Shown: piece after piece, positions 3,098 to 27,296 of the stretch | Layout: each line of letters begins with the position of its first letter | Numbering within the stretch: the stretch's first letter is position 1 | DNA from: Marinobacter sp. HL-58 | GTDB lineage: Bacteria > Pseudomonadota > Gammaproteobacteria > Pseudomonadales > Oleiphilaceae | Assembly: GCF_001314605.1 (NCBI RefSeq) | Contig: NZ_LIHP01000012.1 | Location: 24,080-56,079 of the forward strand | DNA: 32,000 nucleotides | Direction: 5' to 3' | The notes under the pieces: model-generated | Seen by the model: only the letters and a program-made list of their open reading frames with translations | The model's database searches: none | Told to the model about the DNA's origin: nothing | Program-made: the position numbers and the translations under genes

Positions 3098-3547
3098 ATG
3101 AGAAACCTGATCAAGAGAGACAAGCCGTCCCTGCCCACCTTTCAACAGGAAATGGAGCGCTTTTTTAACGAACGCCTGTGGCCATTCTCTCTGGACGACA
3201 GGGAGCACGCCGGTGTCGCCCAATGGGCACCGGCTGTGGATGTCAAAGAAGACAAAGACCGTTTCGTGGTCACTGCAGACGTTCCCGGTGTCGATCCCAA
3301 GGACATCGAAGTGAATCTGGAAAACGGGGTACTCACAATACGCGGGGAGCGCGAAGAGGAAAAAGAAGATGACGACAAGGGCTGGCACCGGGTAGAACGA
3401 TTCACCGGCAGCTTTTTCCGCCGCTTTGACCTGCCCGGCGCAGCTGATGCCTCGCAGGTGACAGCAAAATCCGACAAGGGCGTTCTGAAAATTGAAATCC
3501 CCCGGTCAGAGAAGTCGCAAAATTCTCGCATCGAGGTCAAAGGCTGA
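3098..3547 (+). CDS. small heat-shock protein, Hsp20/alpha-crystallin family
   Basis: 149 aa with an alpha-crystallin domain: APAVDVKEDKDRFVVTADVPGVDPKDIEVNLENGVLTIRGER ... GSFFRRFDLPG ... GVLKIEIP. SD GGAG lies 8 nt upstream. Confidence 0.93.
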   Translation: MRNLIKRDKPSLPTFQQEMERFFNERLWPFSLDDREHAGVAQWAPAVDVKEDKDRFVVTADVPGVDPKDIEVNLENGVLTIRGEREEEKEDDDKGWHRVERFTGSFFRRFDLPGAADASQVTAKSDKGVLKIEIPRSEKSQNSRIEVKG

Positions 3548-11229: not shown

Positions 11230-13650
11230 TCAGTGTTTGATCAGCCGGAACTGGTAATGTGAGCCGGGGCTGACCGCATGAAACAGGCCCCGGTATGCAA
11301 TGGTGACAGGATCTGCTGTCAACTGGCGGCTGCTGACCCGAAGTCGGTCTTTGGTTACCTCGAGGTCCAGCTTCTGTCTTCTGTACCACAGGCATGTTTT
11401 CAACCGGTGGATCTCGTCCGGCAAGGTGGGATTCAGAAACAGCACATCCCCCTGGACTTCAAGGCCCAGATAGCAGCGCTGAATCAGATCAACGGTACCG
11501 GCCATCGCCCCCAGATGGATGCCTTCCGGTGTCGTGCCCCCCTGGATATCGCTGATGTCGCTGTCCAGTGCGTTCTGAAACAGTTGCCATGAATGCTGTC
11601 GGTCGCTTCGCGCCAGCACCCACGAGTGCAGGACCCAGCTCAGGGTCGAGCCATGGGAGGTTCTGTGGAGATAATAATCCACGTTTCTCGGAATGGTATG
11701 GGGGTCAAACGGATAGCCAAGCTGTTCGAAAATTTGCTTCAGCTCTTCCGCTGTGAACAGATAGAACAGCATCAGGACATCGGCCTGTTTCGAGGCCTTG
11801 TAGCGATTGGTGTCATCACCTTCCGCCTCAAGAATGCGGTCAAGCCGGTGGATATCGCCGTATTTTTTCCGGGCGCCATTCCAGTCGAACTCTTCCAGGT
11901 CTTCATAGCCTTCAAACTGACTGATAATCCCCTCTTCGTTGAGAGGAACAAACAGTTTGCGGCTGACGTCATGCCAGCGTTCAACTTCCTCGCCGGTGAT
12001 ACCCAGTTCTTCACAAAGCTGACGCGCACGGTCCGGTGGCAGAATTTCCAGTACCTGACAGGCGCGAGTGAGCACCCAGGCCGCCATCACATTGGTGTAG
12101 GCATTATTATCCAGGCCACCCTCTGTGGAAGGGTCTGCGCCAGGATAGGCGGTGTGGTACTCATCCGGGCCCATGACCCGGCAAATGTCGTAGCGACCCC
12201 GCTGTGCATTCCAGGAGACGATGCCGGCCCAGAAACGGGCGATCTCCAGCAGCATTTCGGCGCCGTATTCCTCCATGAATTCACAATCGCCACTCACTTC
12301 ATAGTAGTGCCAGAGATTGTAAACAATGGCGGAATTGACATGCCGCTGGCGGTTGCTGTTATCCGGAATCCATCGCCCCGATTCCGGATTCAGGTGCAGA
12401 ACCTGGCTTTCTTCCCGTCCGCTGCTCCCGCTCTGCCACGGGAACATCGCACCACTGAACCCGGCTTCCCGGGCCAGGCTTCTCGCAGCAGGTAATCGGC
12501 GATAGCGATATTGCAAAAGCGCGCGGCAACGGGCGGGGGCATGGGCGACAATAAGAGGAAATATGAACAGTTCATCCCACATGATGTGAGCACGGTAGGC
12601 CTCACCGTTCCAGCCCCGGGGGGGCACACCGACATCCAGATCATTGGTGTGGCGCGTTACGGTCTGCAACAGGTGAAAAACATGGAGGCGCAGTTTCATC
12701 GAGAGGTCGACGCCACCGTCGCTATCGATCTCCAGCTCAAACAATTCCCACAGGTGCTGCCAGGCATTCTCATGACTGGCAAGGAGTGCATCGAAATCAC
12801 CGGCCGGAGGAAGCTTTTCCTTTGCCGCAAGCAGTGGCTCGGAGATGCCCCGATCCCGGGAGGTAAACAGGGAGGCAATCTTCTCCACCCTGGTGGTATC
12901 TCCCGGCGCGACATCCACCGAGACCTCCTGTGCAACCAGGCCCTTGCAAACGTCCGCAGCATGATCCGGGTGAATGACTCTGCCGTTATGATAAAGGCGG
13001 GTTCGCGCGGCCTGCGCTATCTCGATCCGGGATTGCACGGTCCGGCTTCTCAGCCAGATGATCTCATTCCCCATCGCCCCCGCATCCAGAGGCTCGAGAT
13101 GACGTCCTCTCAGACTTTGATAGCGTGCCACGCCCATATTGGTGACCGTTCCGTCCAGGCCGGAACGCACGGTCAGGCAGCCTGACCAGTTTTCCGCAGT
13201 AATGGTTACCTCCAGGCCAGCAAGGTGTGCGTCCACCATGCTGACAAAACGCCGCTCCTCGACTCTTGTGATACGGTCCTGGTCATCGCAAAATCGCAAT
13301 GTGCGGCTCAGCACTCCCCGACGAAGATCGAGCACTTGCCGATAATCCATGAAGGTCAACTGGTCCGGGTTCAGCCAGGGCCCGTCGTCCACGCGAATCA
13401 TCAGCACAAGCCAGTTGGGAATGTTGACCAGATCCTCATTCTCGATCTCACGGCCTTCAATTTCGGTGGTAAGCCGGTTGTAGCCTCCGGCGAGATAGGA
13501 CCCCGGATAATGGAACTTGCCGGCGGTGACATCCGGGGCCGCGCCGCGGGTGCAAAAGTAACCATTGCCAAGCGCGCATAATGTCTCGCGCAGCCCCTCA
13601 TGCTGCGGCTCATAGCCCTCGTACTCAAGCAGCCAGCCCTTGTCGCTCAT
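11230..13650 (-). CDS. glycoside hydrolase family 65 protein (disaccharide phosphorylase type: trehalose/kojibiose/maltose class, substrate not assignable)
   Basis: 806 aa. The N-terminus LRETLCALGNGYFCTRGA and a VMGPDEYH segment are features I associate with GH65 phosphorylases and their catalytic Glu. The start overlaps the upstream gene's stop (ATGA at 13647-13650). Confidence 0.88.
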   Translation of the reverse strand: MSDKGWLLEYEGYEPQHEGLRETLCALGNGYFCTRGAAPDVTAGKFHYPGSYLAGGYNRLTTEIEGREIENEDLVNIPNWLVLMIRVDDGPWLNPDQLTFMDYRQVLDLRRGVLSRTLRFCDDQDRITRVEERRFVSMVDAHLAGLEVTITAENWSGCLTVRSGLDGTVTNMGVARYQSLRGRHLEPLDAGAMGNEIIWLRSRTVQSRIEIAQAARTRLYHNGRVIHPDHAADVCKGLVAQEVSVDVAPGDTTRVEKIASLFTSRDRGISEPLLAAKEKLPPAGDFDALLASHENAWQHLWELFELEIDSDGGVDLSMKLRLHVFHLLQTVTRHTNDLDVGVPPRGWNGEAYRAHIMWDELFIFPLIVAHAPARCRALLQYRYRRLPAARSLAREAGFSGAMFPWQSGSSGREESQVLHLNPESGRWIPDNSNRQRHVNSAIVYNLWHYYEVSGDCEFMEEYGAEMLLEIARFWAGIVSWNAQRGRYDICRVMGPDEYHTAYPGADPSTEGGLDNNAYTNVMAAWVLTRACQVLEILPPDRARQLCEELGITGEEVERWHDVSRKLFVPLNEEGIISQFEGYEDLEEFDWNGARKKYGDIHRLDRILEAEGDDTNRYKASKQADVLMLFYLFTAEELKQIFEQLGYPFDPHTIPRNVDYYLHRTSHGSTLSWVLHSWVLARSDRQHSWQLFQNALDSDISDIQGGTTPEGIHLGAMAGTVDLIQRCYLGLEVQGDVLFLNPTLPDEIHRLKTCLWYRRQKLDLEVTKDRLRVSSRQLTADPVTIAYRGLFHAVSPGSHYQFRLIKH

Positions 13651-15281
13651 GCGTTACCTCCGGTTGCAGTGATCATGGACAGCCACTTCAGGAAATCCGC
13701 CACCTCATCGGTGTCCTCCAGCGCGTAATGGGCAATGGTTTGCCGTTCGCTGTCGTCGCGCACCACTATTCCGATGCCCCCACAGCCCCCTTCTTCCTGC
13801 CTGAGGACACGGAACGCGTCTTCATCCGTAGTATCGTCACCAATATAGATCGGCACCACATCGGGACCTTTCTCATGGCCGAATCGTTCCAGTAGCCACA
13901 ACAGGGCCTGTCCTTTGTTCCAGTCGGTACGGGGCTTCACATCAAACACTTTCTTGCCGGAGGATTTGCGCAGGCGGGGGTGATCGGAAAGTACCCGGTC
14001 CACGACTTTCTCCACTGCAGGCACACGATTGTCTGCTACCTGTCGGTAATGAACAGCGATGGAGAATTTTTTGCGCTCCACAGAGGCGCCGTCGATATCA
14101 GCGAGTTCTTTCATCAAGCTGGCTTCGGCGGAATCCAGATCAGGGAGGAATGCCTTTCCCTGCTGAAGCTCTTCATGCCAGCCCTCGGGCCCGGCGATAT
14201 CGAATCCGTGACTACCCGCATAAAAGATCTGATCCAGGCCTACAAGCCCGCGAACATTTTCCAGGTCGCGTCCGCTGATAACAGCCACTGTGCACGTCTG
14301 AGCGAGTTGGTCGATAACAGTCCGCATTTCCCCGCTCAGTTCGGCCTTGCGATAGTCTTCGACGATCGGGGTCAGGGTGCCGTCATAATCCAGGAACAGG
14401 GCGACATGCTTGCCCTGCAAGCGTTCTTTCACGTCCTTGCGGGCTTTCCACAATGAGGGAATGTCGTGCAGGGGCGCAGCATATACACTGCGTCTCTGGT
14501 GTTCCAGAAGTTCACCCAGTGTGTCGGTTACGACATGCGCTCCACTGGTTTGTAACGCCTGACTGTGGCTCGACTCTCCACGGCTGACCCCCACAACCAG
14601 TGCAAAACCGCCACCGGCGGCGGCTTCCACGCCCGCCACTGCGTCCTCAATAACAACCGCCCGTTCAGGTCGAACCCCAAGGCGGGACGCAGCTTGCAGA
14701 AAGATGGCGGGATCAGGCTTGCCCGGCAGGTTTTGCTCGGCCATGTCGATGCCATCCACCTTGACCGCAAACAAATCCGAGATTCCCGCATTGGCAAGCA
14801 CGGCTTCGCAGTTTCTGCTGGCGGAAATAACCGCAGCGCTGATACCGGCCTCGTTCAGGCTTTGCAGCATCTCCAGGGCATCGGGAAAGATATCCACCCT
14901 ATGGCTTTCAAGCCATTCGCGGAAATACCGGTTCTTGCGATTGCCAAGACCGCAGACTGTTTCCCGGTCAGGGGCGTCGTAAGGATCGCCCCACGGCAAT
15001 CGGATATGCCTGGATTCCAGGAAATCCCGCACGCCGTCATACCGGGGCTTGCCGTCCAGGTATTCACTGTAATCCTCGTGACTGAATGGTGCCAGACCGG
15101 ACTGTCGTGCCGCCCCATACTCTTTCAGGTAGTCATCGAACAGTTGCTTCCACGCGGCTTCATGAGCACGACGGGTGTCCGTAATGACCCCATCGAGATC
15201 GAATATCACCGCATCAATCTTCGCCGGATCCAGCGGAACCAGAGAGGGTCTTGCAGAACAGGTACCTGCGTGTCCATTCAT
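13647..15281 (-). CDS. two-domain HAD protein: beta-phosphoglucomutase-like hydrolase fused to a trehalose-6-phosphate-phosphatase (OtsB)-like domain
   Basis: The N-terminal half has HAD motif I AVIFDLDGVITDT, GKPDPAIFL and VVIEDAVAGVEAA (beta-PGM subfamily style). The C-terminal half has a second motif I LFLDYDGTLTPIV and YIGDDTTDEDAF (OtsB style). Confidence 0.85.
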   Translation of the reverse strand: MNGHAGTCSARPSLVPLDPAKIDAVIFDLDGVITDTRRAHEAAWKQLFDDYLKEYGAARQSGLAPFSHEDYSEYLDGKPRYDGVRDFLESRHIRLPWGDPYDAPDRETVCGLGNRKNRYFREWLESHRVDIFPDALEMLQSLNEAGISAAVISASRNCEAVLANAGISDLFAVKVDGIDMAEQNLPGKPDPAIFLQAASRLGVRPERAVVIEDAVAGVEAAAGGGFALVVGVSRGESSHSQALQTSGAHVVTDTLGELLEHQRRSVYAAPLHDIPSLWKARKDVKERLQGKHVALFLDYDGTLTPIVEDYRKAELSGEMRTVIDQLAQTCTVAVISGRDLENVRGLVGLDQIFYAGSHGFDIAGPEGWHEELQQGKAFLPDLDSAEASLMKELADIDGASVERKKFSIAVHYRQVADNRVPAVEKVVDRVLSDHPRLRKSSGKKVFDVKPRTDWNKGQALLWLLERFGHEKGPDVVPIYIGDDTTDEDAFRVLRQEEGGCGGIGIVVRDDSERQTIAHYALEDTDEVADFLKWLSMITATGGNA

Positions 15282-15325: not shown

Positions 15326-16240
15326 TCACATCGTATCGGCACAAGCAATTCGGCGTTCTGCGCGATCAAGACCCTGTGCGTATCGGGCAAGATCTGCCCA
15401 GGGATCATCCGTCTGCCCCAGGCGCCTCAATATATTGCCCATGTGGTATTTACGGGGCGTCAGATTCCCGCAACCCACCTCATCCCATTTCAGCGGTGTC
15501 GCAATCGGAGCACCCTGGAGTGCGCGAACGGCATAGGGTGCAACCGCGGTCTGGCCATAACCGTTGCGCAAATCATCGAGAAAAACCCGTGTACCACGCA
15601 TGTTCCTGCGCTGTTCAATAGTCATTAAATCGGCATGCTGTTCTGCAAGTTTGCGGCAAACGCGATGACTGAAGGCGCGTACCTGCTGGAAATCGGCTTT
15701 TCGGTCCAATGGAACCAGAACGTGAAGGCCACGGGAACCGGTGGTCTGCACGAATGAAACCAGGCCCAGACGGTCCAGCAGCGTCTTGAGGTGAGTGGCA
15801 GTGGTGCGGACCTTGCCAAAGTCATCGTCAGAAGGGTCAAGGTCAAAAATCATCCGGTCGGGGTGGTTGTGTCGGTCCGTCCGGGAAAGGGCAAGGTGGG
15901 GAGTGATGCAGGCCTGATCGGCCAGATAGACGAGAGTGGCGGTATTGTTGGCCACCACGGAGGTCACCTCACCGCCCTCTTTGGGCAGAGTGGCGCGATC
16001 GATCCAATCGGGAAAGTAGTCAGCAATATGCTTCTGGAAAAAGCCACGCTCGCCGATGCCATCGGGATAGCGGTGCATGGTCAAAGCGCGCTTGCGGTAA
16101 TGGGGAAGTGCCACGTCCGCGATCTTCAGGTAGTACTTCGCCAGTTCGAGCTTGCTGATGTTCGGAGACTTGAACATCAGCTTTTCAGGATTGCCGATCG
16201 CAATATCAAGTCCACCCGCTTTCAATACAGCATCCGTCAT
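15326..16240 (-). CDS. stand-alone LigD-type polymerase/primase (AEP) domain protein
   Basis: Motifs seen: RMIFDLDPS, QTTGSRGLHVLVPL, NGYGQTAVAPYAVR. It is colinear with the Pol domain of bacterial LigD. The track ORF extends to 16414, but ATG 16240 has GGGAGG 7 nt upstream and begins MTDAVLKAGGLDI.... Confidence 0.9.
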   Translation of the reverse strand: MTDAVLKAGGLDIAIGNPEKLMFKSPNISKLELAKYYLKIADVALPHYRKRALTMHRYPDGIGERGFFQKHIADYFPDWIDRATLPKEGGEVTSVVANNTATLVYLADQACITPHLALSRTDRHNHPDRMIFDLDPSDDDFGKVRTTATHLKTLLDRLGLVSFVQTTGSRGLHVLVPLDRKADFQQVRAFSHRVCRKLAEQHADLMTIEQRRNMRGTRVFLDDLRNGYGQTAVAPYAVRALQGAPIATPLKWDEVGCGNLTPRKYHMGNILRRLGQTDDPWADLARYAQGLDRAERRIACADTM

Positions 16241-16271
16241 TTTCAAGCCTCCCGGCAACTCGCGCCTCACG

Positions 16272-16871
16272 CTATGAGGCGGCGTCCTCATCTGCATTCG
16301 TCGCGATCTGCCTGATCGTGCGCCCGGTGAGCACCGACTTCGGCTCGGTGGAAACCGGGTTGCGACGAGCATCGGCGTATTGGTCATCCATCTTGACCAA
16401 CAGCCAGCGTGCATCAGCGCCGGAACCGGTGCGTTGCAATGCGTAGCCGCCCTTTAGTTTTTTCCCGAACAGTTGGATCAAGACATGACCCGCCGCTAAT
16501 GCCTCGTCGATTGGCTGTATCTCGCCGTCCTTTTCGGTGATGTTGCGGTAACAACCGCAGTCCCAGACGAGAACAGTCCCTGCACCGTATTTACCTTCGG
16601 GAATCACGCCTTCGAAATCAGCGTATTCCAGCGCATGGTCCTCGGTAGGAATCATGAGGCGCTTTTTACCAGGATCAGTGGAGGGGCCTTTGGGAACAGC
16701 CCAACTCTTGAGCACGTTGCCCACCTCAATGCGAAAATCGTAATGCACAGTGGAAGCATCGTGCTTTTGAACCACGAACCGTGGGCGCTTTGCCGGACCG
16801 CTGCTACGCGACCTGCGGAGCTCGCCGGAGTGGTCGAACGTGTTTTTTGCGGTCGGTACTTTCATTGACAT
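16272..16871 (-). CDS. stand-alone LigD-type 3'-phosphoesterase (PE) domain protein
   Basis: RFVVQKHDASTVHYDFRIE..LKSWAVPKGPS...EDHALEYADFEGVIPEGKYGAGTVLVWD is nearly colinear with the P. aeruginosa LigD PE domain. Starts at ATG 16871 or 16865 (the track uses TTG 16883). The stop is 31 nt before the Pol gene. Confidence 0.9.
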   Translation of the reverse strand: MSMKVPTAKNTFDHSGELRRSRSSGPAKRPRFVVQKHDASTVHYDFRIEVGNVLKSWAVPKGPSTDPGKKRLMIPTEDHALEYADFEGVIPEGKYGAGTVLVWDCGCYRNITEKDGEIQPIDEALAAGHVLIQLFGKKLKGGYALQRTGSGADARWLLVKMDDQYADARRNPVSTEPKSVLTGRTIRQIATNADEDAAS

Positions 16872-16936
16872 AAATCCCAACAACTCACGCTTTTGGCCAG
16901 ATTATGTCAATACACTACTCTCGGCGAATCCGCCTT

Positions 16937-16980
16937 CAGTTGATCCCGGTCAAGTCCGTCCCCGGGCATTTATTCGATAA
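16937..16980 (+). repeat. conserved promoter module, copy A (contains box 3)
   Basis: cagttgatcccggtcaagtccgtccccgggcatttattcgataa matches 36/44 positions of 20966..21009 without gaps. Confidence 0.8.
16940..16953. promoter_or_regulatory. FNR/ANR-type box 3 (TTGATcccgGTCAA) in the divergent PE/ligase intergenic region
   Basis: 9/10 to consensus. GATAAA (16976-16981, 4/6 to TATAAT) starts 29.5 bp from the centre on the + strand. TAGTGT (complement of 16912-16917, 3/6) sits at the mirror distance on the - strand. One site could therefore serve both directions. Confidence 0.5.
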
Positions 16981-17010
16981 ACAAGGTCCATGGTGGGGAG
17001 ATTGAGCAGG

Positions 17011-18837
17011 ATGGACTTCAGGAGCAAGCCGGACACGAACTTCCGGAATATTGATGATCTGACCGAGAAGGAAGCCGCGGAGGAGGCGCGTGCCCTGCGT
17101 GATGGAATCAATTATCACGACCACCTGTACTACGTGAAAAACGCACCAAAGATATCGGATGCCGTCTATGACCAATTGTTTCAGCGCCTTGAGGATCTGG
17201 AGGCCGCTTTTCCCGACCTGAAAACCGAAGATTCGCCGACAGTCCGCATCGGCGCCGAGCCGGTGAGCAAACTGACCAAGATTCGGCATGCGGCACCGCT
17301 GCTTAGCCTGCAGGCGACCCTGGAGTGCAAGGCCGTCGAGTCCTTTCTGAGAACCGCACGCGACAAGTCGGGAACAACATCCGTCCGCTACTGCCTGGAG
17401 CCGAAGTTTGACGGGTTGTCGGTCGAGGTCGTCTACCACGATGGAAGGTTCAAGCATGGCAGCACGCGCGGCGATGGCATGGTGGGCGAGGACATTTCCC
17501 ACAATCTGAAGACCATACGTTCTCTGCCACTTTGCCTGCAGGAGGCTGACGGGGCATCCGGCAGGGTAGCGGTCCGCGCCGAGGTTTACATGTCCAGGGA
17601 AGGATTCGTTGCACTGAACCGACAACGAGTGGAGCGGGGTCAGGATACCTTTGCCAACCCCCGCAATGCTGCGGCCGGAATGATGCGGCAGCTGGAATCG
17701 CGTAACGTCGCCGGCAAGCCCTTCGATATTGTTTTCTACGAGATACTGGCAGCCGACAGCCAGCTCCCCCCCACCCACTGCGAAGTCCTGGATCAGTTGT
17801 CTCGCTGGGGGCTGAGGGTCAGCCCCCTGAACGACTCTGGCAGCTCTCTGGAGGACATTCGGGCCTTTCATCAGGATCTGGCCAAGCGCCGGGACGTCCT
17901 CGATTACGAGATCGACGGGATTGTCGTCAAGGTCGACGATCATGGCCTGCGCGACGAGCTGGGTAACCGGCACCGCAACCCACGCTGGGCTATCGCGTGG
18001 AAGTTTGAGCCGTGCGAGGAAGTCACTACAGTCGCGGACATTGTCGTCCAGGTCGGGCGCACGGGCATACTGACACCTGTCGCGCTGCTGCAGCCGGTGG
18101 ACGTCGGTGGCGTCACGGTCAGCCGTGCAACCCTGCATAACGCCAACGAGGTACGGCGCAAGGATATCCGGGTCGGTGATTGCGTCCGTGTGATACGCGC
18201 CGGTGACGTCATCCCGGAAATCGAAAAGCGCATCGGGCAAAAGGGCAGCAAGCGCGCGGCACCCTTCTCCATGCCCCGTCGCTGCCCAGCATGCGGTTCG
18301 AAGGTCCAGCGCAAAGGCGCCTATTACCTGTGCAACGCAGGCCTTTCCTGCCCCGCACAGTTAGTCACCCGTCTGCAGCACTTCGCTTCCCGCGATGCAA
18401 TGGATATCAAACATCTTGGTGAACACACCGCGGCCCAGTTGGTAGAGCGGGGCCTGGTGCACGATCTTGCCGATCTTTATGGCCTCACCGTTGAGGACCT
18501 TGAGTCTCTGGACGGGTTCGCGGAGCGGTCGGCGAAACAGCTTCATGATGCCATCCAGGGGGCTAAAAAGCCGCCACTGGACCGATTTCTCTATGCCCTC
18601 GGCATTCGTCACGTGGGGCAACGTGTGGCACGTCAGTTGGCCAATGAATACGGTGCCCTGGAAAGCCTGGCCGCAGCCGGACAGCAAGACATCGGGAATA
18701 TTCCGGATATCGGCAAGGAGACGGCAGAGTCGGTGGCGGACTTCTTCGCCGACCACCAGAATCGTGATGTCCTCAACCGTCTTTACAAGGCGGGAATGGA
18801 TGTGCAGCCCATGCCCGGTAAGCACAGACAACCCTAG
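17011..18837 (+). CDS. ligA: NAD+-dependent DNA ligase (LigA family) lacking the C-terminal BRCT domain
   Basis: Domain Ia: INYHDHLYYVKNAPKISDAVYDQLF. Adenylation motif: EPKFDGLSVEV (KxDG). Also TRGDGMVGEDIS, IDGIVVKVD and NPRWAIAWKF. The four-Cys zinc finger is CPACGSKV..YLCNAGLSCPAQ. HhH repeats follow. The protein ends at ...YKAGMDVQPMPGKHRQP, where BRCT would begin. ATG 16990 is the upstream in-frame alternative. I prefer 17011 because the predicted TSS is about 16988 and GGGGAG (16994-16999) precedes it. Confidence 0.92.
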   Translation: MDFRSKPDTNFRNIDDLTEKEAAEEARALRDGINYHDHLYYVKNAPKISDAVYDQLFQRLEDLEAAFPDLKTEDSPTVRIGAEPVSKLTKIRHAAPLLSLQATLECKAVESFLRTARDKSGTTSVRYCLEPKFDGLSVEVVYHDGRFKHGSTRGDGMVGEDISHNLKTIRSLPLCLQEADGASGRVAVRAEVYMSREGFVALNRQRVERGQDTFANPRNAAAGMMRQLESRNVAGKPFDIVFYEILAADSQLPPTHCEVLDQLSRWGLRVSPLNDSGSSLEDIRAFHQDLAKRRDVLDYEIDGIVVKVDDHGLRDELGNRHRNPRWAIAWKFEPCEEVTTVADIVVQVGRTGILTPVALLQPVDVGGVTVSRATLHNANEVRRKDIRVGDCVRVIRAGDVIPEIEKRIGQKGSKRAAPFSMPRRCPACGSKVQRKGAYYLCNAGLSCPAQLVTRLQHFASRDAMDIKHLGEHTAAQLVERGLVHDLADLYGLTVEDLESLDGFAERSAKQLHDAIQGAKKPPLDRFLYALGIRHVGQRVARQLANEYGALESLAAAGQQDIGNIPDIGKETAESVADFFADHQNRDVLNRLYKAGMDVQPMPGKHRQP

Positions 18838-18875
18838 AAATTCAGCGCATGTTGAGGACAACATTCAGCGGCAAG

Positions 18876-18889
18876 TTGATGCTCATCAA
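18876..18889. promoter_or_regulatory. FNR/ANR-type box 4 (TTGATgctcATCAA, perfect consensus), upstream of pcm-ere
   Basis: 10/10 match to TTGAT-N4-ATCAA, within a 16-bp palindrome GTTGATGctCATCAAC. It lies 70 nt before the SD-backed GTG start at 18960. The best -10 candidate, GATAGT (18918-18923), is 6 bp further than class II spacing. Confidence 0.55.
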
Positions 18890-18959: not shown

Positions 18960-20954
18960 GTGGATACCGACCTACGCTCCAGCAAAAAACAAGCATTCCT
19001 GGATCTGTTGAAAAAACGTGGTATCCAGGACAAACGGGTGCTGGAAGCCATGGCGACTGTTCCACGGGAGGCATTTGTCGGCCTTGATCTCGCTGAGCTG
19101 GCCTATGATGACTCCCCCTTGCCCATAGAGAATGGCCAAACAATCTCCCAGCCATACATTGTGGCTCTGATGACCGAGGCAATGCAGCTCAGACCGTCAG
19201 ACACTGTGCTGGAGATAGGCACCGGCTCCGGCTACGCAGCGGCTGTTCTTTCCCGGATCGTGAAGCAGGTTTATACCATTGAGCGCCACCGGGGACTGGC
19301 AGAGCAGGCCCGCGAGCGCTTGTCATCATTGGGCTATGACAATGTCTCGGTCAGGTGCGGTGACGGCACTCTTGGCTGGCCGGAGCATGCCCCTTTTGAC
19401 GCCATTGTTGTGACAGCCGGAGGGCCCTCGGTGCCCCTGTCACTTACCAGGCAACTGGTTATTGGTGGCCGCCTGATCATTCCTGTGGGCCAGTCTCTGC
19501 ATGATCAGAAGCTGCAACGTATTACCCGTGTCAGCGAAGATGACATCAGAACCGAGGAACTCGGTGGGGTCAGGTTTGTTCCATTGATCGGTGAAGAGGG
19601 TTGGCGAGATGTGGAAGGCAGGTTGAACAGACCGCCCCCGGGGAAGGTCGAGCCCGCTGCTGCGCTTTCCGAGCAGATCCGGAGCCAGGCGATTCACATT
19701 CCCTCCATAGAGAGTGTCGATCTCGGCGGCCTGCTGTCACGAATCGGAGATTCCCGCCTGGTGCTGCTGGGTGAAGCCAGCCATGGCACCGCGGAGTTCT
19801 ACGAGATGCGTGCGCGCATCACCAGGGAGCTGATTGAGAAAAAAGGCTTCCACTTTGTGGCCGTGGAAGCGGACTGGCCCGATGCCGCCCAGATCGATCA
19901 TTTTGTCCGTGAAACCCGAAAGGAGCCAACACAAGAGCTCACCTTCAGCCGCTTCCCCACGTGGATGTGGGCAAACCGACAGGTTGCGAATTTTGTGCAA
20001 TGGCTACGCCACCATAACCGGCAAGCAGATACCGGGGATCAGGCGGTGGGATTCTTCGGCCTGGATCTTTACAGCCTCTATTCCTCCATCAATGCCATCA
20101 TCGGTTACCTGGAACAGGTGGACACAGAGGCAGCCGCGGTTGCCCGCGAGCGGTATGGCTGCCTGACACCCTGGGAAAAGGATCCGGCAACCTATGGCAG
20201 AGTAGCGCTCACCAGGCAACAGCTGAGTTGCGAACAGGATGTCGTGGCAATGCTGAACATGCTGATGCAGAAACGGCTGGAATATTCAGCCCATGATGGT
20301 CGCAGGTTCCTCGATGCAGTATCCAATGCCCGTCTGGTAAAGAACGCCGAGCATTTTTATCGTTCCATGTACGATGGTTCGGTCAAATCCTGGAACCTGC
20401 GCGACCAGCACATGTTCGATACGCTGGAAAGCCTGCTTGATTTTCATGGCCCTGACAGCAAGGCGATTGTCTGGGCGCATAATTCCCACCTGGGGAACGC
20501 AGAGGCGACAGAAATGGGGTCTCGTGGCGAGATCAACGTGGGTTCTCTATGCCGCCAGCGTTTCGGGGAGACCGCCTATCTCATCGGCTTCGGCACGCAT
20601 CAGGGTACAGTAGCGGCGGCATCTGACTGGGGCGCACCCATGGAAGTCAAAAACATTGTGCCGTCGACGCCTGACAGTTATGAGCGTCTTTGCCATGACG
20701 CTGGCCTGAACGCATTTTTCCTGCCTCTGCGTCATGGCGAAAAGAACCTTGTGAAGGAACTGCAGCGGCCAAGACTGGAGCGGGCCATTGGCGTGATCTA
20801 TCGCCCGGAAACGGAAATAGCCAGTCACTACTTCATCGCATCCCTGTCCAGGCAGTTTGACGAATATATCTGGTTTGACAAAACCCGGGCGGTGGATGCG
20901 CTGGGACCGGAAGCGGGCAAGGGTATGCCGGAGACCTTCCCGTTCGGTCTCTGA
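18960..20954 (+). CDS. pcm: fusion protein: protein-L-isoaspartate O-methyltransferase (Pcm) N-terminal domain + erythromycin-esterase-like (Ere/ChaN-type) C-terminal domain
   Basis: The Pcm part (to about 19605) has VPREAFV, GQTISQPYIVALM, LEIGTGSGYAAAVL, FDAIVVTAG and VRFVPLIGEEGW, colinear with E. coli Pcm. The Ere-like part (from about 19700) has RLVLLGEASHGTAEFY and VAVEADWPDA. The start is assigned to GTG 18960, with AGGAGG (18948-18953) 6 nt upstream. The track's ATG 18849 would add 37 aa with no homology and would cover the FNR box. Confidence 0.85.
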   Translation: MDTDLRSSKKQAFLDLLKKRGIQDKRVLEAMATVPREAFVGLDLAELAYDDSPLPIENGQTISQPYIVALMTEAMQLRPSDTVLEIGTGSGYAAAVLSRIVKQVYTIERHRGLAEQARERLSSLGYDNVSVRCGDGTLGWPEHAPFDAIVVTAGGPSVPLSLTRQLVIGGRLIIPVGQSLHDQKLQRITRVSEDDIRTEELGGVRFVPLIGEEGWRDVEGRLNRPPPGKVEPAAALSEQIRSQAIHIPSIESVDLGGLLSRIGDSRLVLLGEASHGTAEFYEMRARITRELIEKKGFHFVAVEADWPDAAQIDHFVRETRKEPTQELTFSRFPTWMWANRQVANFVQWLRHHNRQADTGDQAVGFFGLDLYSLYSSINAIIGYLEQVDTEAAAVARERYGCLTPWEKDPATYGRVALTRQQLSCEQDVVAMLNMLMQKRLEYSAHDGRRFLDAVSNARLVKNAEHFYRSMYDGSVKSWNLRDQHMFDTLESLLDFHGPDSKAIVWAHNSHLGNAEATEMGSRGEINVGSLCRQRFGETAYLIGFGTHQGTVAAASDWGAPMEVKNIVPSTPDSYERLCHDAGLNAFFLPLRHGEKNLVKELQRPRLERAIGVIYRPETEIASHYFIASLSRQFDEYIWFDKTRAVDALGPEAGKGMPETFPFGL

Positions 20955-25261: not shown

Positions 25262-26278
25262 ATGACATCATCAGCCTCGATACAACTGCATATAGCCAAT
25301 GCTATCCCGCCGGGAAACGAGAAAGAAACCAGTGATATTATCGCCCTGTGGCAGGAGGTCAGCGGTTTTTTCGCTGACAAGTCTTTTTCAAGCCGCAGCG
25401 ACTTCAGAGGCGACGTCCATGATTATCACGTCACCCTGGATGCCGGGCCATTGCTGAAGGCACTGGAGAACGCAAGAACCGAGTCAGGTTCTTTTACAGA
25501 GCATCAGCAAGCCTTCATCGACGATGCCGGCAAAATCATGGAGGGGGGGCTGATCATTACCATCGCCAGCGAAAAACAGGAACTGGCGGAAGAGGAAAGC
25601 TATCAGGTAGCAACAGCCTTTATTCAGCAACTGGTCATGGCTACCCACATTGCCTGCCCCGGTTCTTTTCAGATCCTAAATGCCCGGTTTCTTGGCGAAA
25701 ACGCGCACCTCTATGAAGCACAGCACTTTGACGCCAGGATATTTTACGGCGCCTACAAGACTGCCATTGAAAACGAGTGGCCAAAACTCCGGAATCTGGC
25801 TTTCGGTGAAGTCTGGAACTGGCTGGAGGGCACTGAAGTCAGCCAGACCTATACTGCGATCAAAAGCATCGACAAGAGCCTTTTCACTCTTCTCAAAGTG
25901 GCCGAGCAACGAAACGAGTACAGCGCCCGGACAGCCCTGCTGGTCATGTATCAGATAGAGGTTCTGCTCGACTGCCGGCAGTTCAACTCACTGGAGGATG
26001 TCCGGAACCGCACCCGGCTGGTGCTGGGCAATATTCCTGAGGCGGCAGACTGTCTCCAGGAATTGCACGAAGTGCGCAATCACCTGTTTACAGCCAATCA
26101 GCCTGTGCATCCACCAATGCTGATTTGCCACACCGCCGAAAGGGCTCTGAGAGAACAGCTGGGCCAGCACAACAGTGCTGTTGAATCCGGCACAGCGCTG
26201 GTATTGAAGCTGTTCCAGGACCTGGTAGCGCATGGCGCCTACCGTTACAGGTTTACCGAGAGCTTTACCCGGGATTGA
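25262..26278 (+). CDS. hypothetical protein, no family recognised
   Basis: 338-aa ORF with SD AAAGGAG 6 nt upstream, starting 15 nt after the gap stop. No convincing ORF on the opposite strand. I recognise no motif. My spot counts of 60-nt lines give about 47-55% GC, versus about 62% for a malQ line. Confidence 0.65.
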   Translation: MTSSASIQLHIANAIPPGNEKETSDIIALWQEVSGFFADKSFSSRSDFRGDVHDYHVTLDAGPLLKALENARTESGSFTEHQQAFIDDAGKIMEGGLIITIASEKQELAEEESYQVATAFIQQLVMATHIACPGSFQILNARFLGENAHLYEAQHFDARIFYGAYKTAIENEWPKLRNLAFGEVWNWLEGTEVSQTYTAIKSIDKSLFTLLKVAEQRNEYSARTALLVMYQIEVLLDCRQFNSLEDVRNRTRLVLGNIPEAADCLQELHEVRNHLFTANQPVHPPMLICHTAERALREQLGQHNSAVESGTALVLKLFQDLVAHGAYRYRFTESFTRD

Positions 26279-26345
26279 GTCTCTGGCATCGCCATTCGGG
26301 ATGCCTGATCTTATAAGAGACCATTGTCGATAAGGAGCAGCTGAT

Positions 26346-27296
26346 ATCAACGCCATCGTTACTCTCTGCATAAAACCCGCAATCGATCTGTTTTGCGAAA
26401 CTGAGCGACTGGTCGACGACAGCAAGAGTCGGTGCCGGATTACGGCCCGCGAGCCCGGCGGTGGCGGTATCAATGTCGCCCGCAACCTCCACGGCATGGG
26501 GGCGGATGTCCTGGCCGTTTTCGCGGCCGGCGGAGAAAACGGCAGACACCTTCGGGAAATCCTGCAGCAGGAGGGAGTTCCCGTTCATTGCTTGGACATC
26601 GCCGACGACACCTGCCAGAACATCGGCCTTACTGAAGCATCCACCGGAAAGATGTACCACCTGGTATTTCCGGGACAGCAACTGAACGAATCCGAATGGC
26701 AAAACTGCCTTGATTTCCTGCATAACATCGATCCGGCGCCGGGTTATCTGGTGCTCAGCGGAAGCCTGCCCGAAGGCGCCCCCGATGATTTTTATGGCCG
26801 TATCGCTTTGGACGCCAGGAAGAGAGGCATCAGGACGATATTGGACACTTCCGGCAGGGCATTGGCTGCCCCACTCAAGACCGGCGTCTATCTGGCCAAG
26901 CTCAATTGTGGTGAGTTTGTTGACAGTGGTTATACCGGCAGCCTCGAGGACTACAAGAGCATGCTTGCCGCCATGGCTGAAATGGTGGCAGACGGCATGG
27001 CCGAGGCACTCATTGTCACCCTGGATGCAGACGGCGCTTTACTGGCAACCCGCGCCGGCGACAGGCTCCATGTGCGGCCGCCAAAAACAGAAGTGGCAAG
27101 CCATGTGGGAGCGGGGGACAGTTTTGTTTCGGTGCTTGTATACAAGTTGCACCGGGGGAAGTCGCTGGTGGAAGCTTATCAATACGGTGTGGCAGCAGCA
27201 GCGGCCAAGGTGCAGATACCGGGCAATCACCTCAGCAACTTGGCGCTGGTTGAGGATATCTATCGACAGATAGAAAGCCAAACCGAAGATGAATGA
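26346..27296 (+). CDS. pfkB: PfkB-family sugar-phosphate kinase (closest by eye to 6-phosphofructokinase II / 1-phosphofructokinase), apparent non-canonical ATC start
   Basis: From 26346 the frame reads (I/M)NAIVTLCIKPAIDLFCETERLVDDSKSRCRITAREPGGGGINVARNLHGMGADVLAVFAAGGENG.... This is colinear with E. coli PfkB (MVRIYTLTLAPSLD...EPGGGGINVAR...FPAGG). Later motifs are LSGSLPEG and VGAGDSFV. An in-frame TAA sits at 26331-26333. There is no ATG/GTG/TTG until ATG 26496, which would delete the first 50 aa. AAGGAG (26332-26337) lies 8 nt before ATC 26346. Confidence 0.8.
   Translation: MNAIVTLCIKPAIDLFCETERLVDDSKSRCRITAREPGGGGINVARNLHGMGADVLAVFAAGGENGRHLREILQQEGVPVHCLDIADDTCQNIGLTEASTGKMYHLVFPGQQLNESEWQNCLDFLHNIDPAPGYLVLSGSLPEGAPDDFYGRIALDARKRGIRTILDTSGRALAAPLKTGVYLAKLNCGEFVDSGYTGSLEDYKSMLAAMAEMVADGMAEALIVTLDADGALLATRAGDRLHVRPPKTEVASHVGAGDSFVSVLVYKLHRGKSLVEAYQYGVAAAAAKVQIPGNHLSNLALVEDIYRQIESQTEDE

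What the first reader, a model, noticed from the sequence alone, without database searches (positions are those of the whole stretch)
15326..18837. Stand-alone LigD PE and Pol genes with no ATP-ligase domain or Ku, head-to-head with a BRCT-less NAD+ ligase: a candidate non-canonical end-repair module
Seen: a PE-domain gene (16272-16871) and a Pol/AEP-domain gene (15326-16240) are separated by only 31 nt, leaving no room for a ligase domain. No Ku-like ORF is in the window. Divergent from them, sharing one ~140-bp control region with an FNR-type box, is a LigA-family ligase. It retains domain Ia, KxDG, OB, a four-Cys zinc finger and HhH, but stops where BRCT should begin. Established: Pseudomonas LigD has domain order PE-LIG-POL. 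Mycobacterial Prim-PolC with LigC forms a Ku-independent short-gap/BER repair pair. LigD Pol prefers rNTPs, and PE trims 3'-ribonucleotides and 3'-phosphates. Inference: the NAD+ ligase paralog takes the place of the ATP-dependent ligase domain, giving a three-gene PE/Pol/NAD+-ligase system for non-growing, low-dNTP (hypoxic) cells. Using NAD+ rather than ATP to seal would be a notable energetic twist. I do not know of a described PE+Pol+NAD-ligase module.
Basis: partly seen in the sequence, partly recalled or inferred. Interest (0 to 1): 0.72.

Follow-up and report, generated by a model that had tools for sequence, protein, structure and literature searches.

The report
Repair-type NAD+ ligase beside ligase-less LigD genes
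In one Marinobacter strain, a horizontally spread, repair-associated copy of the NAD+-dependent DNA ligase (shortened by a local deletion) lies back-to-back with stand-alone LigD end-trimming and gap-filling genes inside an oxygen-regulator-marked stress island; this is a plausible but strain-specific three-enzyme DNA-break repair kit, not a conserved new system.

Summary
The window (Marinobacter sp. HL-58) carries intact stand-alone LigD-type PE (16272-16871) and Pol (15326-16240) genes. They diverge from a LigA-family ligase (17011-18837) that ends exactly where BRCT should begin, and an FNR-type box lies in the 139-bp spacer. No Ku, ATP-ligase or PolX is in the window.

In favour:
- The ligase is not of the gammaproteobacterial zipA-ligA housekeeping lineage (41-42% identity).
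- It belongs to a clade whose members usually sit next to PolX(PHP) and/or Fpg/Nei (19 of 27 loci), so it looks like a repair ligase.
- One relative has Pol-PolX-LigA in one operon.
- The PE-Pol pair descends from three-gene PE-LIG-Pol operons that lost LIG.

Against:
- The two closest ligase relatives (75-76%) have BRCT and no PE/Pol.
- The BRCT loss is a ~0.9-kb deletion that also removed a Usp gene.
- A LIG-less PE-Pol pair also exists elsewhere with no ligase nearby.
- I could not check for a second ligA in the genome.

Verdict: a strain-specific juxtaposition that may act as a Ku-independent 3'-end-healing, gap-filling and NAD+-sealing kit in non-growing cells. New variant of a known kind; moderate interest.

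The parts
15326..16240 (-). Stand-alone LigD-type primase-polymerase (Pol, AEP), 304 aa
   Evidence: PF21686 at 1e-83; TIGR02778 above cut-off. The DxD and third Asp align with P. aeruginosa LigD POL; best solved relative is 5DMU at 2e-87. All top-120 homologs are stand-alone proteins of ~300 aa.
16272..16871 (-). Stand-alone LigD 3'-phosphoesterase (PE), 199 aa
   Evidence: PF13298 at 5e-40; TIGR02777 above cut-off. The QKHDAS..HYDFR.E and EDH.LEY active-site motifs are invariant. Best solved relative is 5DMP at 3e-54.
16872..17010 (.). 139-bp divergent control region between PE and the ligase
   Evidence: Read directly from the sequence. It is partly alignable with the region upstream of the ligase in L001.
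16940..16953 (.). FNR/FixK-type box TTGATCCCGGTCAA (1 mismatch)
   Evidence: 4 boxes in the window against 0.8 expected; 4 of 100 shuffles reach 4. Relatives L035 and L001 also have boxes upstream of the ligase.
17011..18837 (+). LigA-family NAD+-dependent DNA ligase lacking BRCT (608 aa; ORF opens at 16990)
   Evidence: NF005932 scores 689 bits against a cut-off of 369. Catalytic and NAD+-binding residues and the four-Cys finger are intact. Nested in the PolX/Fpg-linked clade.
18834..18863 (.). Deletion scar: 30 nt that replace ~0.9 kb (BRCT coding sequence plus a Usp gene) present in relative L001
   Evidence: blastn of window against L001. No BRCT remnant anywhere in the window.
18876..18889 (.). 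Perfect FNR-type box TTGATGCTCATCAA, ~70 nt upstream of the likely GTG start (18960) of the PCMT-esterase gene
   Evidence: A perfect box sits at the homologous position in L001.
11230..15281 (-). Trehalose genes (GH65 phosphorylase-like; HAD/trehalose-phosphatase) directly downstream of Pol on the same strand (44-nt gap), possibly co-transcribed
   Evidence: No terminator-like site between Pol and the phosphatase gene.
18960..20954 (+). Protein-isoaspartate methyltransferase fused to an erythromycin-esterase-like domain, downstream of the ligase
   Evidence: Called as 664 aa in another assembly.

Best explanation
Shown. The ligase belongs to a distinct, patchily distributed LigA clade that I call LigA2. 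In most relatives, LigA2 is encoded next to PolX (a polymerase with a PHP 3'-end-processing domain) and/or an Fpg/Nei glycosylase. That makes it a base-excision or single-strand-break repair ligase rather than the zipA-linked replicative ligA.

In the Marinobacter sub-lineage, LigA2 has separated from PolX. It sits in a trehalose/glycogen/PHA/Hsp20/PIMT stress island that carries FNR/FixK-type boxes and its own Crp/Fnr regulator.

In strain HL-58 two further events occurred:
1. A ~0.9-kb deletion removed the BRCT coding region and a neighbouring Usp gene.
2. A two-gene PE-Pol cassette now lies divergently next to the ligase. It derives from a three-gene PE-LIG-Pol split-LigD operon of the kind seen in Wenzhouxiangellaceae, without the LIG gene.

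Inferred. PE removes 3'-phosphates and 3'-ribonucleotides, and Pol fills short gaps. Together they provide the same chemistry that PolX-PHP provides in sister lineages. LigA2-deltaBRCT then seals the nick using NAD+. This would give a Ku-independent repair kit for short gaps and 3'-blocked breaks, expressed with the stress island in oxygen-limited, non-growing cells. The arrangement is a recent, strain-specific assembly, not a conserved module.
For: - Identity and domains.
- The clade is repair-linked. tblastn neighbourhoods and an NJ tree give PolX within 10 kb in 15 of 27 clade loci (at least 53% identity). Another 4 loci, with truncated flanks, show Fpg only. The sisters of the window sub-clade (L002, L003, L116) carry PolX plus Fpg.
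- M. salinus and M. szutsaonensis have LigA2 and PolX; in M. salinus they are four accession numbers apart.
- L006 has Pol-PolX-LigA2 co-directional, with 66- and 40-nt gaps.
- The ligase is not of the housekeeping lineage. It is 41-42% identical to E. coli and Acinetobacter LigA, which sit next to zipA. Apart from HL-58 itself, only one Marinobacter cluster (P0014, three species/MAGs) is among the 120 best hits, all at least 57% identical.
- Origin of PE-Pol: L032 and L034 have overlapping PE-LIG-Pol genes; L030 has PE-Pol without LIG.
- Active sites are intact.
- BRCT-deleted LigAs still seal nicks, and do so in vivo in E. coli (PMC10504179).
- Regulation: boxes; island regulator with an ETLSR recognition helix.
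- No HL-58 PolX appears among the 120 best PolX hits, all at least 66% identical.
Against: - The nearest ligase relatives (L001 76%, L115 75%) have no PE/Pol next door; a P-type ATPase is there instead.
- Among 27 clade loci, PE is never adjacent and Pol is adjacent once.
- L030 keeps a LIG-less PE-Pol pair with no ligase nearby, so such pairs need no adjacent ligase.
- The genes here are divergent, not an operon.
- The BRCT loss is collateral to a deletion that also removed Usp. It lowers DNA affinity in other LigAs.
- No LigA fusion with PE, Pol or PolX was found.
- Presence of Ku, an ATP-ligase, PolX or the canonical ligA elsewhere in HL-58 could not be checked.
- The enrichment of FNR boxes is modest (4 of 100 shuffles reach it).
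Confidence: 0.5

Rival explanations
1. The adjacency is coincidental. PE-Pol landed in a variable stress island and works with another ligase elsewhere in the genome: an ATP-dependent LigC/LigD-LIG with or without Ku, or the housekeeping LigA. LigA2 acts independently, for example with other base-excision repair enzymes.
For: - The adjacency is missing in the closest relatives.
- L030 has PE-Pol with no ligase nearby.
- The island is rearranged between relatives: L001, L005 and the window differ in gene order.
- The orientation is divergent.
- Only 1 of 27 clade loci has a LigD-type Pol nearby.
Against: - LigA2 is otherwise a repair-operon ligase whose usual partner, PolX, provides the same two activities as PE+Pol.
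- L006 shows Pol in the same operon as PolX-LigA2.
- The pair shares a 139-bp spacer with an FNR-type box.
- The PE-Pol cassette has lost its cognate ligase.
Confidence: 0.33
2. Decay. The truncated ligase, and perhaps PE-Pol, are non-functional remnants of horizontally acquired genes in a region undergoing deletions.
For: - The BRCT loss comes from a 0.9-kb deletion that also removed Usp.
- A neighbouring PfkB homolog has an in-frame stop near its 5' end.
- Reciprocal deletions are seen in L001, where PCMT-esterase is reduced to a 61-aa fragment.
- BRCT is disrupted in two other clade members, P0062 and P0038.
Against: - All three ORFs are full-length up to the domain boundary, with every catalytic residue conserved.
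- The deletion ends cleanly in the linker and creates a stop 1 codon later.
- BRCT-less LigAs are active in vitro and in vivo.
- Identical sequence is found in independent assemblies.
Confidence: 0.12
3. This is the only ligA of the strain, i.e. the replicative ligase, and its position next to PE/Pol is irrelevant.
For: A second ligA could not be searched for: the genome-contig scan did not return the HL-58 genome. BRCT is dispensable for E. coli viability when the truncated enzyme is over-expressed.
Against: - It is 41-42% identical to zipA-linked gammaproteobacterial LigAs, but 58-69% identical to LigAs from unrelated taxa.
- There is no zipA or smc context (against 47, 48).
- Apart from HL-58 itself, only one Marinobacter cluster appears among the 120 best hits, so the genus-typical LigA is a different protein.
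- The gene sits in a variable island, downstream of an FNR-type box.
Confidence: 0.05

Closest known systems
Stand-alone archaeal NHEJ proteins (PDB 5DMU 'NHEJ Polymerase' and 5DMP; from memory these are Methanocella paludicola Pol and PE, which work with separate Ku and ATP-dependent Lig)
   Same: Pol and PE are separate polypeptides. They are the best solved-structure matches, at 2e-87 and 3e-54, with the same catalytic motifs.
   Different: That system has Ku and an ATP-dependent ligase. Here neither is in the window, and the neighbouring ligase is NAD+-dependent.
Bacterial LigD (e.g. Pseudomonas aeruginosa PE-LIG-POL; Agrobacterium LigD1/D2, PMC1920237) with Ku
   Same: Homologous PE and POL modules in the same PE-to-POL order. 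Relatives L032 and L034 keep PE-LIG-Pol as three overlapping genes.
   Different: There is no LIG module and no Ku nearby, and the modules are separate genes. Whole-LigD models score far below their cut-offs.
Mycobacterial Prim-PolC/LigC short-gap BER pair (from memory; PDB 5OP0/6SA0 are matched at 7e-41)
   Same: The concept is the same: an AEP polymerase plus a dedicated ligase for Ku-independent repair of short gaps.
   Different: LigC is ATP-dependent and is in an operon with Prim-PolC. Here the ligase is a LigA-type NAD+ enzyme, transcribed divergently, and a PE gene is present.
E. coli LigB (a BRCT-less NAD+-dependent ligase paralog)
   Same: It is an NAD+ ligase without BRCT, and most likely a second, non-replicative copy.
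   Different: It is not a LigB. NF005987 scores 221 bits against a cut-off of 498, while LigA models pass. All four Zn cysteines are kept. The BRCT loss here is a recent deletion.
Bacterial PolX with a PHP domain in base-excision repair (PMC2566882, PMC9226535)
   Same: PolX supplies gap filling plus 3'-end processing. These are the two activities that PE+Pol supply, and PolX is the usual neighbour of this ligase clade.
   Different: PolX is absent from the window. No HL-58 PolX was seen among the 120 best PolX hits. PE and Pol are unrelated folds.

Membership tests
LigD 3'-phosphoesterase (PE) family | Match to PF13298 / TIGR02777 above the curated cut-off | tested here: met
   PF13298 scores 136.4 bits (cut-off 31.1). 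TIGR02777 scores 177.3 bits (cut-off 144).
LigD 3'-phosphoesterase (PE) family | Active-site His/Asp/Arg/His/Tyr (QKH..HYDFR, EDH..Y) | tested here: met
   These residues are invariant in the alignment with relatives and aligned to P. aeruginosa PE 3N9B.
LigD 3'-phosphoesterase (PE) family | 3'-phosphatase and 3'-ribonuclease activity | not testable with these tools
   This needs an enzyme assay.
LigD-type AEP primase-polymerase (Pol) | Match to PF21686 / TIGR02778 above the cut-off | tested here: met
   PF21686 scores 281.3 bits (cut-off 27.4). TIGR02778 scores 242.7 bits (cut-off 214.7).
LigD-type AEP primase-polymerase (Pol) | Metal-binding Asp triad (DxD plus a third Asp) | tested here: met
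   FDLDP and FLDDLRN align with LDLDP and FVDYLRN of P. aeruginosa LigD POL 2FAO.
NAD+-dependent DNA ligase LigA | Whole-protein match to LigA equivalog models | tested here: met
   NF005932 scores 689 bits (cut-off 369). TIGR00575 scores 657 bits (cut-off 444).
NAD+-dependent DNA ligase LigA | Domain Ia NAD+-binding residues, KxDG lysine, OB, C4 zinc finger, HhH | tested here: met
   Alignment with E. coli LigA. In 608-aa numbering: Y40, D50, Y53, D54, K132, D134, G135, R153, E191, K307, K331, C425, C428, C441, C447. Pfam domains.
NAD+-dependent DNA ligase LigA | C-terminal BRCT domain | tested here: not met
   The protein ends 1 residue before the BRCT of its homologs. There is no BRCT remnant in the window. 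The loss is due to a ~0.9-kb deletion.
NAD+-dependent DNA ligase LigA | Housekeeping context (smc-zipA-ligA in Gammaproteobacteria) | tested here: not met
   The neighbours are PE/Pol and PCMT-esterase. E. coli and Acinetobacter ligA sit next to zipA.
LigB (enterobacterial NAD+ ligase paralog) | Match to NF005987 above the cut-off; only two Zn cysteines | tested here: not met
   221 bits against a cut-off of 498. Four cysteines are present.
Canonical bacterial NHEJ (Ku + LigD) | Ku gene and an ATP-dependent ligase module linked to Pol/PE | tested here: not met
   None was found in the 32-kb window or in the 10 kb downstream. The rest of the genome is not testable with these tools.
PolX/Fpg-linked LigA clade (defined here, not a curated family) | Phylogenetic nesting among ligases adjacent to PolX and/or Fpg | tested here: met
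   NJ tree. The window groups with L001 and L115, inside the clade that contains L002, L003, L116 and L005.
PolX/Fpg-linked LigA clade (defined here, not a curated family) | PolX or Fpg gene within 10 kb | tested here: not met
   No PolX or Fpg in the window. PE/Pol occupy the neighbouring position.

The most novel reading that the evidence does not exclude
LigA2 would be a dedicated repair ligase that forms a three-enzyme BER/single-strand-break operon with PolX-PHP and Fpg/Nei across halophilic and marine Gammaproteobacteria, and in similar form in other phyla. I found no description of this operon. In HL-58 the PolX partner would have been functionally displaced by LigD-type PE + Pol. That would create a Ku-independent, NAD+-powered analogue of LigD that operates in oxygen-limited dormancy.
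Probability: 0.3. Interest if true: 0.65.

Novelty: new variant of a known kind. Interest (0 to 1): 0.42.

Why it matters
If the three proteins do cooperate, LigD-type end-healing and gap-filling modules would not be tied to ATP-dependent ligases or to Ku. They could instead be plugged into an NAD+-dependent ligase. This would be a non-orthologous swap for PolX-PHP in a base-excision or single-strand-break repair pathway.

More broadly, the data point to a widespread LigA-PolX-Fpg gene linkage. They also point to a second, horizontally mobile LigA lineage in marine Gammaproteobacteria. That lineage would be a natural target for studies of DNA maintenance during desiccation, hypersalinity and anoxia.

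If the adjacency is coincidental, the locus is simply an example of island shuffling.

Tried and rejected
- The genome-contig scan with the ligase used exact 8-mer peptide patterns. It returned only distant LigAs (33-45% identity) and not the HL-58 genome, so it could neither find a second ligA nor support a census in named genomes.
- Supplements of two HL-58 omics papers contain no ligase entries.
- Literature searches for a described PE+Pol+NAD-ligase module, a LigA-PolX operon or 'LigA2' found nothing relevant. The PolX neighbourhood paper PMC9226535 reports LigD and ATP-ligase neighbours but not LigA.
- Fusion search: the long proteins among the 150 best representatives are LigAs with duplicated HhH or extra linkers, plus one radical-SAM fusion. 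None is fused to PE, Pol or PolX.
- Plasmid collection: no member of this ligase clade (all hits below 60% identity, best ~43%). A Streptomyces plasmid with the nearest plasmid-borne stand-alone Pol has no LigA nearby. A Paraburkholderia ligD locus was fetched to obtain a Ku sequence but had none annotated.
- No flanking repeats suggest a mobile element around PE-Pol.
- The sigma-70 promoter and terminator scan gave nothing above background.
- The look-up of the leftmost window gene, meant to extend the view upstream, failed because the called start differs.
- The LigB assignment was rejected on model score and cysteine count.

Full report
**What is there**

The window is from Marinobacter sp. 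HL-58: the ligase and the Pol are 100% identical to proteins named from that strain.

- On the minus strand, a 199-aa PE gene (16272-16871) is followed after 31 nt by a 304-aa Pol gene (15326-16240). A GGGAGG ribosome-binding site precedes the Pol ATG.
- Both genes pass the curated domain models for LigD PE and LigD Pol.
- Both keep the catalytic residues seen in solved structures of P. aeruginosa LigD domains. Their best solved relatives are stand-alone proteins: 5DMU at 2e-87 and 5DMP at 3e-54.
- Diverging from PE across 139 bp is a LigA-family gene. Homologs start MDFK..., and the database protein has 608 aa, so the start is most likely ATG 17011, not 16990.
- The ligase has domain Ia, the adenylation domain, OB, a four-Cys finger and HhH. 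All residues known to matter in E. coli LigA are conserved.
- It ends at ...MPGKHRQP*, where eight relatives continue into BRCT.
- No Ku, ATP-dependent ligase, PolX or Fpg is encoded in the window or in the 10 kb downstream.

**What kind of ligase it is**

- It is only 41-42% identical to E. coli and Acinetobacter LigA, both of which lie in the classical (smc-)zipA-ligA context.
- It is 58-76% identical to LigAs from a scatter of taxa: Microbulbifer, Methylohalobius, Kineobactrum, Candidatus Tenderia, and MAGs labelled Deltaproteobacteria and Chloroflexota.
- Apart from HL-58 itself, only one Marinobacter cluster appears among the 120 best hits, all at least 57% identical. It covers M. salinus, M. 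szutsaonensis and a MAG. The LigA typical of this well-sequenced genus must therefore be a different protein.
- It is not a LigB. The model scores 221 bits against a cut-off of 498, and all four cysteines are kept.

I could not verify directly that HL-58 also has the canonical ligA. On the indirect evidence I put the chance of a second, canonical ligA at about 0.9.

**What the ligase clade is linked to**

I collected contexts through exact-protein look-ups and 80 metagenome loci. I then scored neighbours by tblastn and placed the ligases in a neighbour-joining tree.

- The window ligase sits in a clade of ligases at least 53% identical to it.
- In 15 of 27 non-window loci, a PolX gene with a PHP domain lies within 10 kb, usually less than 700 nt away.
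- Four more loci, whose upstream flank is cut off, show an adjacent Fpg/Nei gene only.
- The immediate sisters of the window's sub-clade (Methylohalobius L002, Microbulbifer L003, L116) have ligase-PolX-Fpg.
- More distant LigAs (42-51% identical, unknown taxa, and one haloarchaeal MAG) also often have PolX immediately downstream.
- The taxa that carry this ligase also carry the matching PolX. In M. salinus the two genes are four accession numbers apart.

I found no description of this linkage. The main PolX neighbourhood study lists LigD and archaeal ATP-ligases as neighbours, not LigA.

The clade therefore looks like a repair ligase that partners with a gap-filling polymerase carrying its own 3'-end-cleaning domain, and with a glycosylase/lyase that leaves 3'-phosphate ends.

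**How the HL-58 arrangement arose**

- The two nearest relatives (L001 76%, L115 75%) keep BRCT. They have neither PolX nor PE/Pol next to the ligase; a P-type cation ATPase is there instead.
- L001 is otherwise syntenic with the window: GH65, trehalose phosphatase, then the ligase, then PCMT, GH57, GH77, GAPDH, a conserved 338-aa ORF, PfkB and an amylase.
- At the DNA level, window 18508-18833 matches L001 9525-9850, and window 18864-19179 matches L001 10753-11073. About 0.9 kb of L001, comprising the BRCT coding sequence and a Usp gene, is replaced in HL-58 by 30 unmatched bases.
- No BRCT remnant exists anywhere in the window.

BRCT-lessness is thus a by-product of a recent local deletion, not a design feature of a paralog family.

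Published work shows that BRCT-deleted LigAs from Deinococcus, E. coli and Thermus still seal nicks, and in E. coli they do so in vivo. Their DNA affinity is lower (PMC10504179). In M. tuberculosis the BRCT domain mediates the contact with XthA (PMC7530888).

**Where PE-Pol came from**

- All 120 best Pol homologs are stand-alone proteins of ~300 aa, many from Wenzhouxiangellaceae.
- In L032 and L034 the locus is PE-LIG-Pol: three overlapping genes with a 335-353-aa ATP-dependent ligase in the middle.
- In L030, the closest relative (73%), it is PE-Pol with no LIG. There is no ligase of any kind within the flanks available, about 1.3 kb upstream and 7 kb downstream.
- PE proteins from all four loci are colinear, with no ligase remnant.

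The HL-58 cassette is therefore a LIG-less derivative of a split LigD operon, most likely acquired horizontally. A LIG-less pair can persist without an adjacent ligase.

The only other case of a LigD-type Pol next to this ligase clade is L006. There an intact 276-aa Pol, PolX and the ligase are co-directional, with 66- and 40-nt gaps. PE is never adjacent in the 27 loci.

**Regulatory and genomic setting**

The locus lies in an island of storage and stress genes:
- PhaC, Hsp20, GlgB, a P-type ATPase and PEP synthase;
- GH65 and trehalose phosphatase;
- PCMT fused to an erythromycin-esterase-like domain;
- GH57, GH77, GAPDH, PfkB and amylases;
- just past the window, TreT and a Crp/Fnr-family regulator.

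PE and Pol head a minus-strand array with short or negative gaps down to GlgB. The ligase heads the plus-strand array.

TTGAT-N4-ATCAA boxes with at most one mismatch occur 4 times against 0.8 expected; 4 of 100 shuffles reach this. Three of them are in promoter-like positions:
- 598;
- 16940, which is 71 nt before the ligase ATG;
- a perfect box at 18876, ~70 nt before the likely GTG start of the PCMT-esterase gene.

The perfect box is conserved at the homologous position in L001. L001 and L035 also have boxes upstream of the ligase.

The island regulator lacks the FNR N-terminal cysteine cluster but has an ETLSR recognition helix. Its best match is the Fnr subfamily model, below cut-off. Relating that helix to TTGAT boxes rests on my knowledge of the Crp/Fnr family.

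This fits co-expression with a low-oxygen or dormancy programme, but the statistics are modest and no expression data were found.

**Most likely mechanism**

The following steps are inferred, not shown.
1. Oxidative or desiccation damage, or glycosylase/lyase action, leaves short gaps with 3'-phosphate or other blocked ends.
2. PE heals the 3' end. LigD PE is an established 3'-phosphatase and 3'-ribonuclease (PMC1920237).
3. Pol fills the gap, possibly with rNTPs (PMC7072297).
4. The BRCT-less NAD+ ligase seals the nick.

This is the same chemistry that PolX-PHP plus this ligase would provide in sister lineages (PMC2566882, PMC9226535). PE+Pol may therefore substitute for PolX in HL-58. No HL-58 PolX was seen among the 120 best PolX hits, which is weak negative evidence.

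I give this reading about 0.5. The main rival, at about 0.33, is chance juxtaposition in a shuffled island, with PE/Pol served by another ligase. Decay gets about 0.12 and sole replicative ligase about 0.05.

**Comparison with known systems**

- The parts are ordinary members of known families: LigD PE, LigD Pol and LigA minus BRCT.
- The system works like LigD or like mycobacterial Prim-PolC/LigC. It fails the membership tests for canonical NHEJ because Ku and the ATP-ligase module are not linked to it.
- It also fails the test for LigB.

The combination of a LigA-type ligase with LigD PE/Pol is, as far as my searches show, undescribed. Here it is a single-strain arrangement.

**Verdict**

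- Observation confirmed.
- Interpretation partly supported.
- Novelty: new variant of a known kind.
- Interest: moderate (0.42).
- The more general and better-supported by-product is the LigA-PolX-Fpg linkage and the existence of a mobile, repair-type LigA lineage.

Noticed in passing
window 18849/18960-20954 (+): A protein-L-isoaspartate O-methyltransferase is fused to an erythromycin-esterase-like domain (664-701 aa), preceded by a perfect FNR-type box. In relative L001 only a 61-aa PCMT fragment remains.
   Followed up: partly
L119:13865-14590 (about 2 kb beyond the window's right end): The island encodes a Crp/Fnr-family regulator of 241 aa. It has no N-terminal Cys cluster and carries an ETLSR recognition helix. 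A similar regulator sits beside GH65 in the Marinobacter MAG locus L005. It is a candidate reader of the TTGAT-N4-ATCAA boxes.
   Followed up: partly
L065, L068-L070, L074, L079, L080, L085, L090, L091, L098 and L007: LigA genes only 42-51% identical to the window ligase, from unknown taxa and one Halobacteria MAG, also have PolX within about 250-1000 nt. The LigA-PolX linkage therefore extends well beyond the gammaproteobacterial clade.
   Followed up: partly
window 26292-27296 (+): The PfkB-family kinase aligns with its L001 ortholog from 26292, but there is an in-frame stop 13 codons in. The open frame starts only at 26496 (266 aa against 331 aa). This is either a pseudogene or a shortened start.
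   Followed up: partly
window 25262-26278 (+): A 338-aa ORF has no Pfam match. It is conserved at 79% identity and in the same position in L001, between GAPDH and PfkB.
   Followed up: no
window 3098-3547 (+): An ORF of 149 aa looks like a small heat-shock protein (alpha-crystallin type). It lies between PhaC and GlgB and adds to the stress-island character. This was judged from the sequence only, not scanned against a family library.
   Followed up: no
L006:4555-6603: The ligase of this Pol-PolX-LigA locus is split: a 630-aa ORF is followed by a separate 51-aa BRCT ORF. P0038 (624 aa) also lacks BRCT. BRCT is therefore disrupted repeatedly in this clade, or these are assembly errors.
   Followed up: no
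L032:6430-9291: In a Wenzhouxiangellaceae-like contig, DnaB carries an intein with a LAGLIDADG endonuclease. The ortholog in L030 has none.
   Followed up: no
cluster of P0014 / P0266: In the original GenBank record of Marinobacter salinus, the clade ligase is labelled 'hypothetical protein BKP64_04185' and the nearby PolX is labelled 'DNA polymerase III'. These are annotation errors that hide the linkage.
   Followed up: no
P0415: A 1015-aa protein joins a complete LigA (with BRCT) to an RlmN-like radical-SAM domain. It is either a real fusion or a merged gene call.
   Followed up: no
L034:2183-4319: Upstream of a PE-LIG-Pol operon lie a RecA_N/MT3502_N-like gene and a 476-aa ORF with no Pfam hit. 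They resemble an imuA-imuB-type mutagenesis cassette.
   Followed up: no
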